Source of the DNA: Escherichia phage vB_EcoS-UDF157lw
Sequence record: OQ243221
Length of the DNA stretch: 46,604 nt
Strand: one strand, 5' to 3'
A program made the position numbers and the translations under genes. Positions 3,298 through 8,103 of the stretch are shown piece after piece (the first letter of the stretch is position 1; each line of letters opens with the position of its first letter). Below the pieces are notes generated by a model. It was not told the origin of the DNA. It ran no database searches and saw only the letters and a program-made list of their open reading frames with translations.

Positions 3298-3484
3298 ATC
3301 ACTAGGGAAAGTCAGATGCATTGTGTCTTACAATGATAAGAAGTTCAAAACTGGTAAATCTTACAGCATTTTGTCATCACCCGCATATGGTTGGGTTAAA
3401 TGTGAGTCAGAAGATGGGTGTATAGAGATGGTTAAAGATGGCAATGACATTGAGTTTGGTTACTTTGAGGTATTTTATGACTGA
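3290..3484 (+). CDS. Hypothetical protein (64 aa; start moved to internal ATG)
   Basis: ATG at 3290 overlaps the upstream stop (ATGACTAA); the track start at 3269 would overlap 29 nt. Confidence 0.45.
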   Translation: MTKSLGKVRCIVSYNDKKFKTGKSYSILSSPAYGWVKCESEDGCIEMVKDGNDIEFGYFEVFYD

Positions 3485-3541
3485 GCTATCAATCTGGTTC
3501 CTGGCTGGCATGTTGACGTGGATTTATTTCGTCGTCATGGC

Positions 3542-3570
3542 TTGACGAAAATGTTAAAAGTGGTTAGTAT
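3542..3570 (+). promoter_or_regulatory. Candidate sigma70-type promoter (TTGACG, 17 nt, TAGTAT) upstream of the tRNA region
   Basis: Hexamers and 17-nt spacing read directly; lies in a 286-bp non-coding gap. Confidence 0.3.
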
Positions 3571-3770
3571 TAACCACGTAGACGGCAATGACCGTAACGC
3601 TCATCGCGGAGATGCAAGCCGATAGCCGGGCTGGATAAAGATACGAGGCAAATAAAACCGCAGTTAGACATTGAGTGCTTAGCATAGCGCACGCCTTAAT
3701 GCAGTAAGTCGGACTTGACCTTCCGAGGATTGTGAAACCTCCCCGCATTCGGTAAGCGGGACTCATTCTA

Positions 3771-3846
3771 GTTCTGCTGGCGTAACAGGATAACGCAGAG
3801 ACCTCCTAAGTCTCAGTTACTGGTTCGAGTCCAGTGCGGAACACCA
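3771..3846 (+). tRNA. tRNA-Arg (anticodon CCU, reads AGG)
   Basis: Hand-folded cloverleaf: acceptor GTTCTGC/GCGGAAC (one G-U), D-arm GCGT/ACGC with GG in loop, anticodon stem GAGAC/GTCTC with loop CTCCTAA (U33, CCT, A37), T-arm ACTGG-TTCGAGT-CCAGT, discriminator A, encoded CCA. Confidence 0.85.
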
Positions 3847-3862
3847 AGCATGGAGCATCCTA

Positions 3863-4048
3863 GTGAATAACTACGAAGTCCGTTTAACTTCCCGCCTAAT
3901 GGGTCGGCAATGCAAATCTTGCCAGCAATCCTACGAAGGTAGGTTCATTGCTAAAAGCCCTGAAGAAGCAGTTGCAGCCGCAAAGGCAGCATTTAATATT
4001 GACCTGACAGTTCACAAGGTCAGCGTTGATAAAGTATCCCTCGTTTGA
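3863..4048 (+). CDS. Hypothetical protein (61 aa, GTG start)
   Basis: ORF in track; GGAG 7 nt upstream of GTG; followed by a strong terminator. Confidence 0.35.
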   Translation: MNNYEVRLTSRLMGRQCKSCQQSYEGRFIAKSPEEAVAAAKAAFNIDLTVHKVSVDKVSLV

Positions 4049-4076
4049 GATTGGTCATCTCGCAATGCAGTACTTT

Positions 4077-4100
4077 GCCCTCCTTGTGAGGGCTTTTTTT
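4077..4100 (+). terminator. Rho-independent terminator
   Basis: GCCCTC-cttgt-GAGGGC hairpin followed by TTTTTTT. Confidence 0.7.
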
Positions 4101-4147
4101 CGTCCATAGTCATGGTACAATGACTTTTAAAACAGGAGGAATATCAA

Positions 4148-4663
4148 ATGTCAGAAGAGAAAAAGATTCACCAGAAGATTGGCAACTTCAAGGAGCTATA
4201 CAATAAGAAGTATGGCGACATTGCCAATCTAAAGATTAACCACAGGTACACTCCTGAGCAGGTATTCGACATGGCCGTAAGGTATTTCAGCTGGGCTGAA
4301 GAGCAAGCGATTAAGGCCATTGAAACGGCGAGCTTTCAGGGTGTTGTAACGGAAAACCTTGTTCATAAGCCACGAATATTTACGATAACTGGATTCCAAC
4401 TTTTCTGCGGCGTTGGTCATAATGCCATCAGTAAATGGCGCTCTTCGCCTGGATTTGATGAGGTGATGGAGTTTGTGGATTCGGTAATCTTTGAGCAGAA
4501 GTATCAGCTTGGCGTTAACAACATCATCAACCCTGGACTGATTGGCAAAGACCTTGGCATCGATAAGCCGCAAGAGGTTAACATCAACAACGCTTCTAAT
4601 GCGGCAGTGAACGATGAAGAAGCGATCAAGGCTGCTCTCGAATCAGTAATTGATAAGCTATAG
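4148..4663 (+). CDS. Putative terminase small subunit (171 aa)
   Basis: Position immediately upstream of the terminase large subunit; strong RBS aggagga; own promoter-like region after terminator. Assignment is positional. Confidence 0.5.
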   Translation: MSEEKKIHQKIGNFKELYNKKYGDIANLKINHRYTPEQVFDMAVRYFSWAEEQAIKAIETASFQGVVTENLVHKPRIFTITGFQLFCGVGHNAISKWRSSPGFDEVMEFVDSVIFEQKYQLGVNNIINPGLIGKDLGIDKPQEVNINNASNAAVNDEEAIKAALESVIDKL

Positions 4664-4703
4664 CACTAATTGTCAAAACTCATGGATGAGTTATTGATAT
4701 CAT
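4661..4703 (+). promoter_or_regulatory. Composite promoter-like element: TAGCACtaaTTGTCAAA, 22 nt, TATCAT
   Basis: Motif overlaps terS stop; spacer contains inverted repeat CTCAT..ATGAG; precedes HNH gene. Confidence 0.45.
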
Positions 4704-4728
4704 CATTTAATCAATGTTAGGAGGGTTT

Positions 4729-5217
4729 ATGAATTGGCATGATGAATTTGATTATGATGATGGGCTGCTTTACTGGAAGTGCAGCTTAAAAAATGGCTCA
4801 AGAAAGAAAGGCCACGTTGCTGGTAATATTGACGCAAGCGAAGGTTATGTGAACATAAATTTAAAGACTGGAAAGGTTAAAGCTCACCGTGTTATATGGG
4901 AGATGTTTAACGGTAAAATACCTGACGGAATGGAAATTGACCACATCAACCATGACAGAAGCGACAACAGAATTGATAACTTGAGAATGGTTACTAGGTC
5001 AGAGAACCAAAAGAATAAGAGTAGGTTCAAGAACAACACTTCAGGAATATCAGGTGTAACATGGTGTAGTCGCCATTGCAAATGGAGGGCCAGAATCATG
5101 ATTAACGGAAAGTCAAAGAATCTAGGTAGATTTGACACAATAGAAGCTGCGGCAAAGGCTCGCTCAGACGCTGTAGACGCTCTCGGTTTTCACAAGAATC
5201 ACGGAGATAGAAATTAA
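4729..5217 (+). CDS. HNH homing-type endonuclease with AP2-like DNA-binding domain (162 aa)
   Basis: Motifs EIDHINHDRSDNRIDNLRMVTRSENQ (HNH) and GVTW...KWRARI...LGRF (AP2-like). Start moved to ATG 4729, which follows RBS taggaggg. Confidence 0.8.
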   Translation: MNWHDEFDYDDGLLYWKCSLKNGSRKKGHVAGNIDASEGYVNINLKTGKVKAHRVIWEMFNGKIPDGMEIDHINHDRSDNRIDNLRMVTRSENQKNKSRFKNNTSGISGVTWCSRHCKWRARIMINGKSKNLGRFDTIEAAAKARSDAVDALGFHKNHGDRN

Positions 5218-6779
5218 TGATTATATGGGATGAATTAACCAATCAGGAGAGGCTGGCCATTAAGGCAATTTCAGAGCACAGCTTCGAAGGGTTCTTGCGC
5301 TGCTGGTTCTCAATCACTCAGGGGCAGAAGTTCATTATGAACTGGCATGCGAAATACCTTTGCCGGATTGTTGATGAGATTATTGAGGGCAAAAGGAAGA
5401 ACACGATAATCAACGTTGCTCCTGGCGCCTCTAAAACGGAGCTGTTCAGCATCCACTTTCCTGTATATAGCATGATAAAGCTGGGCAAGGTAAGGAATCT
5501 AAACCTTAGCTTTGCCGACACGCTGGTTAAGAGGAACTCAAAGAGAGTCAGGGATTTGATTAGTTCAAGTGAGTTTCAGAGTTTATGGCCTTGCAAGTTC
5601 GGAACATCAAGGGATGATGAGATACAGGTACTTGATGATTCCGGTAGGGTAAGGTTTGAGTCAATATCCAAGGCTATGGGGTCACAGATTACTGGTAGTC
5701 GTGGTGGTTATATTACCGACTCATATAGCGGGTGTATTATGTTGGATGATTGCGAGAAACCCGCAGATATGTTTAGTAAGGTTAAGCGCGAGTCCGTACA
5801 TACAACTCTAACAAACACAGTTCGCTCTCGTAGGGCTAGCTCAGTAAAAGGTAAGGAAACTCCTGTAATATCTATTCAGCAGCGATTACATGTTAATGAT
5901 GCAACGTGGTTGATGAAAGAGGGCGGCATGGGCATGGAATTTGACGTGATTAAGATTCCAGCTTTAGTTACGGAGGAATACGCCAACGAGCTTCCTGATT
6001 GGATTCGTGATCAGTTTTGTAAGGATGTTCTCTCATCTGAATACATAGAGCGAGATGGTGTTAAATACTATAGCTACTTCCCGCAAAAGGAGTCAGTTCA
6101 TGACATAATGAAGCTATGGGATCAAGATAGCTACACCTTCATGAGTCAGTATCTTCAAGAGCCAGTAGCCTTAGGCGGAAACCTGATTAACGTAGATTGG
6201 TTTGTTCGTCTTGACGAGAACAATAGGCCGCCAGTCAAGTATGACTACCGTTTCATTACGGCTGATACTGCCATGACTACTAAGAGTTATAGTGACTACT
6301 CAGTATTCCAGCTATGGGGGCGCAAAGATAACAGGCTTTATCTTCTGGATATGGTAAGGGGTAAATGGGAAGCACCTGAACTTGAGCAAACTCTTCTGGA
6401 CTTTGAGAGTAAGCATAGAGCAGCTAGTAAGACAGATGGTATATTGCGCAAGGTTATTATCGAGAAGAAAGCGTCTGGAATAGGACTTATCCAGTCGGCG
6501 GGTCGGGTAATGCGAACTCCTATCGAGCCTTTCGTTCCAGATACAGATAAGTTAACCAGGGTGATGAGCGCACTGCCACAGATTAAAGCTGGTAACGTAG
6601 TTCTGCCTGACTCTGCGCCATGGCTTACCTCGCTATTAACCGAGTTCTCGGCGTTCACTGCTGACGATTCTCATCCCCATGATGACATTGTGGATACGAC
6701 AACAATGGCCATCAACTGTGAATTGAACTTGAGTGACGATCCGAGAGCCCGCTTAATGAGGCTAGCTGGAGTTAAGTAA
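5217..6779 (+). CDS. Terminase large subunit (520 aa)
   Basis: Size, position before portal, deviant Walker A (APGASKTE) and acidic nuclease-like C-terminal half; start overlaps HNH stop (TAATG). Confidence 0.8.
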   Translation: MIIWDELTNQERLAIKAISEHSFEGFLRCWFSITQGQKFIMNWHAKYLCRIVDEIIEGKRKNTIINVAPGASKTELFSIHFPVYSMIKLGKVRNLNLSFADTLVKRNSKRVRDLISSSEFQSLWPCKFGTSRDDEIQVLDDSGRVRFESISKAMGSQITGSRGGYITDSYSGCIMLDDCEKPADMFSKVKRESVHTTLTNTVRSRRASSVKGKETPVISIQQRLHVNDATWLMKEGGMGMEFDVIKIPALVTEEYANELPDWIRDQFCKDVLSSEYIERDGVKYYSYFPQKESVHDIMKLWDQDSYTFMSQYLQEPVALGGNLINVDWFVRLDENNRPPVKYDYRFITADTAMTTKSYSDYSVFQLWGRKDNRLYLLDMVRGKWEAPELEQTLLDFESKHRAASKTDGILRKVIIEKKASGIGLIQSAGRVMRTPIEPFVPDTDKLTRVMSALPQIKAGNVVLPDSAPWLTSLLTEFSAFTADDSHPHDDIVDTTTMAINCELNLSDDPRARLMRLAGVK

Positions 6780-6791
6780 TCATGATAAACT

Positions 6792-6817
6792 GCCCCTTAC
6801 TCAGGGGCTTTTTTATT
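6792..6817 (+). terminator. Rho-independent terminator between terL and portal
   Basis: GCCCCT-tactc-AGGGGC hairpin followed by TTTTTTATT. Confidence 0.65.
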
Positions 6818-6828
6818 GGAGAAATTAC

Positions 6829-8103
6829 ATGGTAAAAGCAGACAGCTACGCAAACATCTTTCTTAGCGGGAGTGATGGTAGTGAGGTTTACGGAAAGTTT
6901 GGCAGCCTTGGCCTAACAGCGCCAGCGCAGCTTGAGCAACTTTACGTCAGCAGCGCTCTGGTTCGTCGAATTATTGATATCGTTCCAGAGGTCGCACTTG
7001 GCGCAGGCTTTAGTATTGAAGGTATCGACGACGAAGGTGCTTTCTGGTCGCGATGGGATGATTTAGGCCTTTCAGATAACGTAATCGACGCACTAGCCTG
7101 GGCGAGACTATACGGTGGCGCTGCTGTAGTGGCAATTGTGAAGGATGGAAGGGCGCTAACCAGCCCGGTTCGTGAAGGTGCGGAGCTTGAAACGGTTCGT
7201 GTGTACGACCGGCAGCAAATTAAGGTCCAGACTCGCGAGGAGAATCCACGTAACGCGCGTTTTGGTAAGCCATTAACTTACCGCATCACACCAAACGGGT
7301 CGGCAACGTTCTACGATGTGCACTATACACGCTGTCACATCATTGATGGCGAGCGAGTACCTAACAACCTGCGTCGTAATAACGATGGCTGGGGCGCAAG
7401 CGTACTAACTGGTGACTTAATTGACGCGATTGACGACTATCAGAACTGTGAGCGACTGGCTACTCAGTTACTTCGTCGTAAACAGCAGGCGGTGTGGAAA
7501 GCAAAAGGCCTTGCTGACTTATGTGATGATTCAGATGGATTTGGAGCAGCTCGTTTACGTCTGGCTCAGGTGGATAATAACAGTGGCGTTGGTCAGGCTA
7601 TCGGGATTGACGCGGATAGTGAAGAGTACAACGTTCTCAACTCAGATATTGGCGGTATTGATACATTTCTGAGTCAGAAGTTCGATCGAATCGTTGCTCT
7701 GAGCGGTATTCATGAGATTATCCTTAAGGGTAAGAATGTTGGTGGTGTGTCAGCAAGCCAGAACACTGCTCTAGAGACTTTCTACGGTTATGTTGACCGT
7801 AAGCGCAAGGCTGAATTATTGCCTCTGCTTGAGTTCCTGCTGCCGTTCATCGTAACCGAGCAAGAGTGGTCAGTAGAATTTAACCCTCTATCGCAGGTTA
7901 GTGACAAGGATAAATCTGAGATTCTTGAGAAGAATGTTAACTCAGTTGCTGCATTGATTGCAGCTGGAATCATTGACGCAGACGAAGCAAGAGATACGTT
8001 GCGCGCAATTTCAACTGAGGTTAAGATTGGTGAAGGCTCAATTCAAACGGAGGTTGTAATTAATGAATCAGAAGACCCGCTGGATGTATCCGCAAATAAT
8101 TGA
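6829..8103 (+). CDS. Portal protein (424 aa)
   Basis: Size and position directly downstream of terL and upstream of the minor head protein; no catalytic motif expected. Confidence 0.7.
   Translation: MVKADSYANIFLSGSDGSEVYGKFGSLGLTAPAQLEQLYVSSALVRRIIDIVPEVALGAGFSIEGIDDEGAFWSRWDDLGLSDNVIDALAWARLYGGAAVVAIVKDGRALTSPVREGAELETVRVYDRQQIKVQTREENPRNARFGKPLTYRITPNGSATFYDVHYTRCHIIDGERVPNNLRRNNDGWGASVLTGDLIDAIDDYQNCERLATQLLRRKQQAVWKAKGLADLCDDSDGFGAARLRLAQVDNNSGVGQAIGIDADSEEYNVLNSDIGGIDTFLSQKFDRIVALSGIHEIILKGKNVGGVSASQNTALETFYGYVDRKRKAELLPLLEFLLPFIVTEQEWSVEFNPLSQVSDKDKSEILEKNVNSVAALIAAGIIDADEARDTLRAISTEVKIGEGSIQTEVVINESEDPLDVSANN

What the first reader, a model, noticed from the sequence alone, without database searches (positions are those of the whole stretch)
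4661..5217. HNH-AP2 endonuclease with its own promoter inserted between the terminase small and large subunit genes
An HNH nuclease with an AP2-type DNA-binding domain sits between the putative terS and terL genes, preceded by a composite promoter element and overlapping the terL start. This is either a free-standing homing endonuclease (mobile element) or an HNH recruited for packaging-associated cleavage.
Basis: partly seen in the sequence, partly recalled or inferred. Interest (0 to 1): 0.5.

Follow-up and report, generated by a model that had tools for sequence, protein, structure and literature searches.

The report
Mobile HNH-AP2 homing endonuclease beside terminase
The gene between the two DNA-packaging genes of this T1-like coliphage is an ordinary selfish homing-endonuclease gene, and comparison with relatives shows it arrived together with about 1 kb of the neighbouring packaging gene, so it is not a packaging factor.

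Summary
Window 4729-5217 (+) encodes a 162-aa protein with an HNH_3 nuclease domain and a C-terminal AP2 fold. It lies between terS (4148-4663) and terL (5217-6779), and its stop codon overlaps the terL start (TAATG). The claimed promoter is not confirmed.

The window is the published genome of Escherichia phage vB_EcoS-UDF157lw (Rogunavirus), where this gene is labelled only "DNA-binding protein".

Comparisons favour a free-standing homing endonuclease gene over a packaging HNH:
- Several viable relatives with near-identical flanking genes (Rogue1, C119, phiKP26, JLA23) lack it, and there terS and terL overlap (ATGA).
- At least three unrelated HNH genes (25-39% aa identity) occupy the same slot in other relatives.
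- The window has an AHS24/BECP10-like backbone. The tract ~4549-6209 (end of terS, HNH, first kb of terL) is phiEB49-like (91%) and only 65-75% identical to siblings.
- Between two other carriers, HNH synonymous divergence is 0.056, against 0.41-1.05 in the flanks.
- The phage is predicted to package by headful (pac).

This is a known kind of element. The candidate homing site (ATGACGCCAGCCGAAAAGCTGGCA in empty alleles) is inferred, not tested.

The parts
4148..4663 (+). terS (terminase small subunit, 171 aa). Bases 4148-~4537 belong to the AHS24/BECP10-like backbone (98-100% identity). The last ~115 nt are phiEB49-like.
   Evidence: phrog_606 E 5.4e-60 and PF16677; segment identity matrices; informative sites
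4535..4549 (.). Left crossover zone of the imported tract. Upstream informative sites are mostly BECP10-like and solidly so from 4279 (47 consecutive sites to 4532); downstream sites are mostly phiEB49-like.
   Evidence: informative-site list
4664..4728 (+). terS-HNH spacer belonging to the cassette. It holds an imperfect inverted repeat (4670-4682 / 4687-4699), an extended -10-like TGATATCAT (4695-4703) and the Shine-Dalgarno AGGAGG (4719-4724).
   Evidence: No canonical promoter.
4729..5217 (+). Free-standing HNH-AP2 homing endonuclease gene (162 aa; an alternative upstream ATG lies at 4714). The N-terminal beta-hairpin region is aa 1-50. The HNH_3 nuclease core is aa 51-94 (4879-5010), with catalytic D71-H72 at 4939-4944 plus N84 and N93. 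The AP2 fold is aa 105-152 (5041-5184).
   Evidence: (D71, H72, N84, R86 invariant in 62 homologues)
5217..6779 (+). terL (terminase large subunit, 520 aa). Its start codon overlaps the HNH stop (TAATG). Its first three codons (M-I-I) are cassette-specific.
5217..6209 (+). 'A-type' terL 5' block imported with the HNH gene. It is 91% identical to phiEB49 and 65-75% to all other Rogunavirinae. At protein level it is <=77% identical to anything except the phiEB49 group and L015 (88%). Its Walker A reads GASKT instead of GAGKT.
5235..5258 (+). Position equivalent to the candidate homing site. All 8 HNH-less alleles carry ATGACGCCAGCCGAAAAGCTGGCA here (>=23/24 invariant). The window allele differs at 12/24 positions and the HNH-B allele at 10/24. 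This is an inference only.
6209..6251 (.). Right crossover zone. The last A-type informative site is 6209, and all 25 informative sites from 6251 to 6743 are backbone type. The zone coincides with a ~40-nt stretch that is almost invariant in all alleles.

Best explanation
Window 4729-5217 is a free-standing homing endonuclease gene of the I-HmuI-like HNH_3 class with a C-terminal AP2 DNA-binding domain. It sits in the terS/terL junction of a Rogunavirus (phage vB_EcoS-UDF157lw).

Likely mechanism (inferred from established knowledge of intron-less homing by T4 Seg/Mob enzymes, reviewed in PMC2988022, with mobE in PMC2790892):
1. During mixed infection the enzyme nicks or cuts the terL region of a co-infecting relative that lacks this cassette.
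2. The break is repaired by recombination using the HNH-carrying genome as template.
3. The HNH gene and flanking DNA are copied in together (co-conversion).
4. The carrier's own terL 5' allele is too diverged at the target to be cut.

Shown here:
- The domain architecture and intact catalytic residues.
- A precise presence/absence footprint.
- Repeated occupation of the slot by unrelated HNH genes.
- A ~1.66-kb imported tract centred on the gene in an otherwise AHS24/BECP10-like genome.
- Much lower synonymous divergence of the HNH gene than of its flanks.

Inferred:
- That cleavage drives these exchanges.
- That the target is the conserved ATGACGCCAGCCGAAAAGCTGGCA near the terL start of empty alleles.
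- That expression comes from read-through or an extended -10 promoter, with translational coupling to terL preserved by the TAATG overlap.
For: Architecture: HNH_3 E 2.6e-25 plus AP2. The model matches I-HmuI and AP2 folds. D71, H72, N84 and R86 are invariant and N93 nearly so among 62 homologues. dN/dS is 0.06-0.07.

Family behaviour: tblastn finds relatives in 2,723 phage records, often several per genome and next to varied genes. HNH-AP2 is an already recognised homing-endonuclease architecture, and such genes cluster near terminase genes (PMC10448857).

Footprint: Rogue1, Sf12, C119, phiKP26 and JLA23 lack the gene. Their terS stop overlaps the terL start (ATGA), and the match is 551 bp shorter.

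Slot re-use: BECP10/AHS24/AKS96 carry a different HNH-AP2 there (33% aa identity). Contig L016 carries a third type (39% identity to this one, 25% to type B) in front of an A-type terL.

Mosaic: the window is 96-98% identical to BECP10, Rogue1 and AHP42 genome-wide. terS 1-390 is 100% identical to AHS24 and terL 1001-end is 99% identical to BECP10/AHS24. In between, the window is 91% identical to phiEB49 and 65-75% to its siblings.

Linkage: three HNH-B phages share a 100% identical terL 10-600, although AKS96's terL 3' end is only 70% identical to the others.

Recent spread: between phiEB49 and L014, dS is 0.056 in HNH, against 0.72 (terS), 0.41 (terL 5') and 1.05 (terL 3'). For the window against phiEB49 or L014, dS is 0.14-0.18 in HNH against 0.51-0.54 in terL 5'.
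Against: No cleavage activity, target site or homing has been demonstrated for this protein or any close relative. Mosaicism is common in phages and could arise by ordinary recombination that merely happens to include the gene. The tight 5' linkage to terL and the translational coupling could also fit a terminase-associated role. Four of the five known A-type terL genomes carry this HNH. The proposed target site rests on 13 genomes, and being adjacent to the insertion point it may simply be part of the cassette.
Confidence: 0.85

Rival explanations
1. Packaging-associated HNH. Like HK97 gp74 and the HNH genes next to cos sites and terminases, the protein assists TerL in cutting concatemers and is a component of the packaging machine.
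For: It lies immediately between terS and terL and is translationally coupled to terL. It is co-inherited with a distinctive TerL ATPase-domain allele in the window, phiEB49, L014 and L015. Published discussion notes that homing and packaging roles upstream of terminase are not mutually exclusive (PMC10448857).
Against: Viable siblings with near-identical flanking genes lack any gene there. This phage is predicted to use headful pac packaging, not cos (PMC10838988). Cos-adjacent HNH enzymes carry a [CxxC]2 zinc site (PMC3592412 abstract). This protein has only C18, C113 and C117, no such motif, and no PF01844 hit at E <= 0.01. L016 pairs the same A-type TerL with an unrelated HNH. Family members sit at many non-packaging loci. 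The HNH gene is far younger than its flanks by dS.
Confidence: 0.05
2. Chance passenger of ordinary modular recombination. The terS-terL junction is simply a permissive site for extra genes, and the HNH gene is inactive or irrelevant to the exchanges seen.
For: Sd1 and Opt-719 carry unrelated 37- and 34-aa hydrophobic ORFs in the same slot, so non-nuclease inserts also occur there. A further mosaic boundary exists in terL 3' without an adjacent nuclease (AKS96 and e4/1c).
Against: The ORF is intact at 162 aa in four lineages down to 70% identity. Catalytic residues are invariant and dN/dS is ~0.06. Three unrelated HNH_3 genes are found in one slot. The dS dip is centred on the HNH gene. Each HNH type is linked to its own terL-5' allele.
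Confidence: 0.07
3. Domesticated DNA-binding regulator, as the GenBank label 'DNA-binding protein' suggests. The AP2 domain is used for transcriptional control of the late or packaging operon, and the nuclease activity is vestigial.
For: GenBank annotation WCI99789.1. The AP2 fold is a transcription-factor domain in plants and Apicomplexa.
Against: The HNH core is the best-conserved part of the family. The gene is absent from siblings that have the same operon.
Confidence: 0.03

Closest known systems
I-HmuI (PDB 1U3E), HNH homing endonuclease of Bacillus phage SPO1
   Same: Best sequence match (E 0.015) and best structural match (Foldseek E 2.6e-4, full length) among solved structures. It shares the N-terminal beta-hairpin DNA-binding region and the HNH_3-type beta-beta-alpha-metal core.
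   Different: I-HmuI is encoded inside a group I intron and has a different C-terminal DNA-binding region. This gene is free-standing (no Rfam intron hit) and ends in an AP2 domain. Only about 20% identity.
HNH-AP2 homing endonuclease family (phages, cyanobacteria, protists; Magnani et al. 2004 as cited in PMC10448857)
   Same: Same two-domain architecture, with an N-terminal HNH and a C-terminal AP2. Same sporadic, multi-copy distribution in phage genomes.
   Different: Nothing architectural. This is one more lineage, whose specific target is unknown.
Free-standing T4 homing endonucleases (SegB/F/G, MobE) and intron-less homing / marker exclusion
   Same: An intergenic gene next to an essential gene, variable presence among relatives, co-conversion of flanking DNA, and a divergent 'immune' flanking allele (PMC2790892, PMC2988022, PMC2330249).
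   Different: Seg enzymes are GIY-YIG, and Mob enzymes are HNH with zinc-finger-type domains rather than AP2. Homing has been shown genetically for those enzymes and not here.
HK97 gp74-type and cos-adjacent HNH packaging endonucleases
   Same: An HNH nuclease encoded next to the terminase genes.
   Different: Those have a [CxxC]2 zinc site, occur in cos phages, and are conserved and required for cos cleavage. This one lacks the motif, sits in a predicted pac/headful phage and is absent from siblings.
Orthologue gp59 of Escherichia phage phiEB49 (YP_009018673.1, annotated HNH endonuclease)
   Same: 97.5% amino-acid identity, the same slot, and the same 1-nt overlap with a 520-aa terL.
   Different: phiEB49 belongs to another genus (Lindendrivevirus) and has three further family copies elsewhere in its genome. 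The window has only this one.

Membership tests
Free-standing HNH (HNH_3 / I-HmuI-like) homing endonuclease | HNH_3 beta-beta-alpha-metal nuclease core with catalytic His/Asn residues intact | tested here: met
   PF13392 E 2.6e-25. D71, H72, N84 and R86 are invariant and N93 nearly invariant in 62 homologues. The model matches 1u3e.
Free-standing HNH (HNH_3 / I-HmuI-like) homing endonuclease | Separate sequence-reading DNA-binding module (here AP2) | tested here: met
   PF00847 E 3.7e-7, below the Pfam cut-off. The fold of residues ~105-152 matches solved AP2 domains with probability 1.0 and rmsd 1.3-3.4 A.
Free-standing HNH (HNH_3 / I-HmuI-like) homing endonuclease | Own ORF between genes, not inside an intron or intein | tested here: met
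   It lies between the terS stop and the terL start. No Rfam intron was found in 3300-7000. TerL aligns colinearly with HNH-less homologues.
Free-standing HNH (HNH_3 / I-HmuI-like) homing endonuclease | Sporadic presence among close relatives with a precise empty site | tested here: met
   It is absent in Rogue1, Sf12, C119, phiKP26 and JLA23, which have a terS/terL ATGA overlap.
Free-standing HNH (HNH_3 / I-HmuI-like) homing endonuclease | Evidence of horizontal movement with co-conversion of flanks | tested here: met
   Imported tract ~4549-6209 in an AHS24/BECP10-like backbone. dS is 0.056 in HNH against 0.41-1.05 in the flanks.
Free-standing HNH (HNH_3 / I-HmuI-like) homing endonuclease | Site-specific cleavage of the cognate endonuclease-lacking allele and nuclease-dependent inheritance bias | not testable with these tools
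   This needs in vitro cleavage and phage crosses. Only a candidate site is proposed.
Packaging-associated HNH (HK97 gp74 / cos-adjacent HNH) | HNH core with a [CxxC]2 zinc-binding site (PF01844-type) | tested here: not met
   There is no PF01844 hit at E <= 0.01. The protein has three Cys (C18, C113, C117) and no CxxC pair (sequence). The feature is taken from the PMC3592412 abstract.
Packaging-associated HNH (HK97 gp74 / cos-adjacent HNH) | Conserved in all related phages as part of the packaging module | tested here: not met
   It is missing from five sequenced relatives and replaced by unrelated HNH genes in others.
Packaging-associated HNH (HK97 gp74 / cos-adjacent HNH) | Host phage uses cos-type packaging | tested here: not met
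   The published PhageTerm analysis of this very phage predicts headful packaging with a pac site (PMC10838988). This is a literature result, not recomputed here.
Packaging-associated HNH (HK97 gp74 / cos-adjacent HNH) | Required for terminase cleavage / packaging | not testable with these tools
   This needs deletion and packaging assays. The viability of HNH-less siblings argues against it.

The most novel reading that the evidence does not exclude
The terS/terL junction of Rogunavirinae may be an arena where at least three unrelated HNH homing endonucleases compete, each carrying its own cleavage-immune terL 5' allele. Under this reading, UDF157lw is a caught-in-the-act case in which the HNH-A cassette displaced the HNH-B cassette of an AHS24-like ancestor. 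Endonuclease pressure would then be what drove the unusually divergent TerL ATPase-domain allele (<=77% aa identity to all but a handful of sequences; Walker A GASKT instead of GAGKT). In that case a selfish nuclease would be shaping the evolution of an essential packaging motor and serving as a weapon in co-infection.
Probability: 0.3. Interest if true: 0.45.

Novelty: new member of a known kind. Interest (0 to 1): 0.27.

Why it matters
Mostly as clean-up. A gene labelled "DNA-binding protein" in a candidate biocontrol phage is really a mobile nuclease gene, and it is not needed to explain packaging.

There is some secondary value. The locus offers a compact natural system with empty, A-, B- and C-occupied alleles in near-isogenic, easily grown coliphages. 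It could be used to test intron-less homing by an HNH-AP2 enzyme, competition between endonucleases for one slot, and nuclease-driven diversification of a terminase ATPase domain. For phage-cocktail design it is a reminder that co-infecting Rogunaviruses can exchange terL segments.

Tried and rejected
- Canonical sigma-70 promoter upstream of the gene: none found by scan. The extended -10 pattern occurs at chance frequency.
- RNA structure hiding the ribosome-binding site: the fold is not better than shuffles (z = -1.36). The outer stem is not maintained in L014.
- Group I intron or other structured RNA: no Rfam hit except tRNA-Arg.
- Paralogues in the window: none.
- Obligatory linkage of HNH-A with the A-type TerL, which would have favoured a functional partnership: rejected, because L016 carries an A-type terL with an unrelated HNH.
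- The small ORFs in the same slot of Sd1 and Opt-719 as decayed HNH remnants: rejected, since there is no similarity and they are hydrophobic peptides.
- Packaging-HNH membership: rejected on the motif, on lack of conservation and on packaging type (see the membership table).
It was rerun without that sequence.

Full report
**What is at the coordinates**

The ORF list gives a + strand ORF at 4714..5217. The most plausible start is the ATG at 4729, which lies four bases after AGGAGG (4719-4724). This gives 162 aa, the length annotated for the phiEB49 orthologue.

- Pfam finds HNH_3 (PF13392, E 2.6e-25) at residues 51-94.
- Pfam finds AP2 (PF00847, E 3.7e-07, 30.8 bits, just under the 33.3-bit cut-off) at residues 105-144.
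- PHROGs places the protein in phrog_99 'HNH endonuclease' (E 2.5e-67).
- An AlphaFold2 model built on 62 homologues is confident (pLDDT 91.6).
- The best solved match to the model is the homing endonuclease I-HmuI (1u3e, E 2.6e-4, full length).
- The C-terminal three-strand-plus-helix domain matches solved AP2 domains of Plasmodium and Arabidopsis (probability 1.0, rmsd 1.3-3.4 A over 46-57 columns).
- D71, H72, N84 and R86 are invariant across the 62 homologues and N93 is nearly so.

The neighbours are terS (4148-4663; phrog_606, GP3_package), terL (5217-6779; phrog_38, Terminase_6C) and the portal gene (6829-8103). The HNH stop TAA (5215-5217) shares its last base with the terL ATG. The gene, its domains, its position and the overlap are therefore all confirmed.

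**The promoter claim**

The consensus scan finds no sigma-70-like site between 4661 and 4728. TTGTCA (4670-4675) and TTGATA (4694-4699) are the outer arms of an imperfect inverted repeat, TTGTCAAAACTCA / TGAGTTATTGATA. Its predicted hairpin is not better than shuffled sequence (z = -1.36), and its outer stem is not maintained in relative L014.

What remains is an extended -10-like TGATATCAT (4695-4703). It is conserved in phiEB49 and L014, and also, as TGATATTAT, in L015, whose HNH is only 70% identical. That nonamer pattern, however, occurs in the window exactly as often as chance predicts (10 observed, 9.96 expected). A dedicated promoter is possible but not shown.

**Identity of the window**

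The TerL and HNH proteins are exact matches to WCI99790.1 and WCI99789.1 of Escherichia phage vB_EcoS-UDF157lw, on a contig of 46,604 bp, which is the window length. In that record the HNH gene is labelled only 'DNA-binding protein'. The phage's paper does not mention HNH or terminase, and it predicts headful packaging with a pac site (PMC10838988). Genome-wide, the window is 96-98% identical to Rogunaviruses BECP10, Rogue1, AHP42 and AKS96.

**Presence/absence and footprint**

- Only phiEB49, which belongs to another genus (Lindendrivevirus), has the same gene in the phage collection (97.5% aa identity, same slot).
- Rogue1, Sf12, C119, phiKP26 and JLA23 have nothing there. Their terS stop overlaps the terL start (ATGA), and the matched region is 551 bp shorter.
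- The RefSeq start of Rogue1 terL appears to be 24 nt too short. The upstream in-frame ATG gives MKTLVWEE..., matching the other phages.
- The cassette therefore runs from just after the terS stop to just before the conserved TGGGA of terL (about 4661-5225). It supplies the first three terL codons (M-I-I) and replaces terS-terL translational coupling with HNH-terL coupling.

**The slot is used repeatedly**

- BECP10, AHS24 and AKS96 carry a different HNH-AP2 gene in the same place (33-34% aa identity). AHP24 and AHP42 also have an annotated HNH there and show the same match pattern. This gene is preceded by an annotated promoter and terminator and overlaps terL by 8 nt.
- A metagenomic contig (L016) carries a third HNH_3 gene there. 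It is 39% identical to this one over 103 aa and 25% identical to type B.
- Other Drexlerviridae records also list homing or HNH endonucleases next to terL.
- Sd1 and Opt-719 have unrelated 37- and 34-aa hydrophobic ORFs in the slot. These are not HNH remnants.

**Mosaic tract**

I compared segment identities across 13 genomes.

| Segment (window coordinates) | Identity of the window to relatives |
|---|---|
| terS 1-390 (4148-4537) | 100% to AHS24, 98% to BECP10, 86% to phiEB49 |
| terS last 126 nt (4538-4663) | closest to phiEB49 (91%) |
| terL 10-1000 (5226-6216) | 91% to phiEB49, 65-75% to every other genome |
| terL 1001-end (6217-6779) | 99% to BECP10/AHS24, 86% to phiEB49 |

Informative sites place the left crossover at about 4535-4549 and the right one between 6209 and 6251. 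The right crossover falls in one of only three stretches of the first ~1.1 kb of terL that are nearly invariant among the HNH-less alleles, and the only one also unchanged in the A and B alleles. That is what recombination resolving in perfect homology would predict.

UDF157lw is therefore an AHS24/BECP10-like genome in which about 1.66 kb has been replaced from a phiEB49-like donor. The replaced tract comprises the end of terS, the HNH cassette and the TerL ATPase-domain coding region. Because the closest backbones carry HNH-B, the simplest history is replacement of one endonuclease cassette by another.

The same linkage appears for type B. BECP10, AHS24 and AKS96 share a 100% identical terL 10-600, although AKS96's terL 3' third is only 70% identical to the other two.

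**Age of the gene relative to its flanks**

- Between phiEB49 and contig L014 (both natural carriers), Nei-Gojobori dS is 0.056 in the HNH gene. It is 0.72 in terS, 0.41 in terL 1-999 and 1.05 in terL 3'.
- For the window against phiEB49 or L014, dS is 0.14-0.18 in the HNH gene and 0.51-0.54 in terL 5'.
- dN/dS of the HNH gene is about 0.06-0.07.
- The ORF keeps 162 codons in L015 at 70% identity.

The gene is therefore under purifying selection and has spread among lineages more recently than its neighbours diverged.

**Family behaviour**

tblastn finds relatives in 2,723 phage records, often several per genome and next to tail, helicase or lysis genes. The window has one copy.

The literature already recognises HNH-AP2 as a homing-endonuclease architecture. 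It also reports that such genes cluster near terminase genes and sit at boundaries of genetic exchange (PMC10448857), and it notes repositioning of HNH genes among T1-like phages (PMC13164509).

**Packaging-HNH alternative**

Its only support is position and coupling to terL. The evidence against it is:
- Viable siblings lack the gene.
- This phage is predicted to package by pac/headful.
- The protein lacks the [CxxC]2 zinc site described for cos-adjacent HNH enzymes (PMC3592412; sequence).
- There is no PF01844 hit.
- The same A-type TerL is paired with an unrelated HNH in L016.
- The dS pattern shows the HNH gene is much younger than its flanks.

I give this alternative about 5%.

**Candidate target (inference)**

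Within the first ~1.1 kb of terL, only one 24-nt stretch is at least 23/24 invariant in all eight HNH-less alleles, which come from several genera, and yet altered in both HNH-bearing alleles. That stretch is ATGACGCCAGCCGAAAAGCTGGCA, which begins 9 nt downstream of the insertion point (window equivalent 5235-5258). The A allele differs at 12/24 positions and the B allele at 10/24.

A second stretch (equivalent to 5895-5923) is invariant in empty and B alleles and differs at 6-7 positions in A. The Walker-A coding region is also A-specific, reading GASKT against GAGKT. These are hypotheses for cleavage assays, not findings.

**Verdict**

This is a real gene, correctly read by the first stage as HNH-AP2 between terS and terL. 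It is best explained as a free-standing homing endonuclease gene, with unusually clear comparative signs of recent mobility. It is a new, uncharacterised member of a well-known kind. An orthologue is already annotated as HNH endonuclease in RefSeq. Interest is low to moderate.

Noticed in passing
window 3771-3846: tRNA-Arg (anticodon CCT) lies upstream of the packaging module and is shared with Rogue1, BECP10 and Sf12. phiEB49 and Sd1 carry a second tRNA there (Val and Trp respectively).
   Followed up: partly
window 4077-4093 and 4113-4121: A terminator-like hairpin (GCCCTCCTTGTGAGGGC followed by a T run) is followed by an extended -10-like TGGTACAAT just upstream of terS. This may be the real start of the packaging operon transcript.
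   Followed up: no
window 6792-6808: A GC-rich hairpin between terL and the portal gene scores as a terminator on both strands.
   Followed up: no
L002 (Rogue1, NC_019718) 2361-2385: The RefSeq terL start looks 24 nt too short. The in-frame ATG overlapping the terS stop (ATGA) matches the starts annotated in Sf12, C119, phiKP26 and JLA23. The e4/1c terL start may be similarly truncated.
   Followed up: partly
terL 3' third (equivalent to window 6217-6779) in L012 (AKS96) and L007 (e4/1c): AKS96 and e4/1c share a second divergent block in the TerL nuclease-domain region. It is 90% identical between them and about 70% identical to all other Rogunavirinae. This is another mosaic boundary inside terL, with no adjacent nuclease in AKS96.
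   Followed up: no
L007 (e4/1c) 2203-2720: A split or frameshifted HNH gene lies between terL and a truncated portal gene. This is a decaying endonuclease at a second slot of the same module.
   Followed up: no
L005 (Sd1) 1661-1774; L008 (Opt-719) 586-690: Unrelated 37- and 34-aa hydrophobic ORFs occupy the terS-terL slot with overlapping start and stop codons. They show no similarity to any of the HNH cassettes.
   Followed up: yes
L001 4488-4694, L005 3409-3735, L008 2325-2681, L015 6121-6444: phiEB49, Sd1, Opt-719, JK06 and L015 have an extra small gene (annotated 'virion structural protein' or hypothetical) between terL and the portal gene. It is absent from the window, Rogue1 and BECP10.
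   Followed up: no
window 5427-5447 (TerL residues ~71-77): The A-type TerL has Walker A PGASKTE where all other aligned Rogunavirinae have PGAGKTE. This unusual substitution in a core ATPase motif is confined to the HNH-A-linked allele.
   Followed up: partly
L003 (BECP10) 2365-2430; L004 (AHS24) 503-561: The HNH-B cassette carries a near-consensus promoter (TTGATA-N17-TATAAT) followed immediately by a strong terminator-like hairpin (CCCCATTC...GAGTGGGG followed by a T run) in front of the HNH start. This odd promoter-then-terminator arrangement suggests tight control of the nuclease.
   Followed up: no
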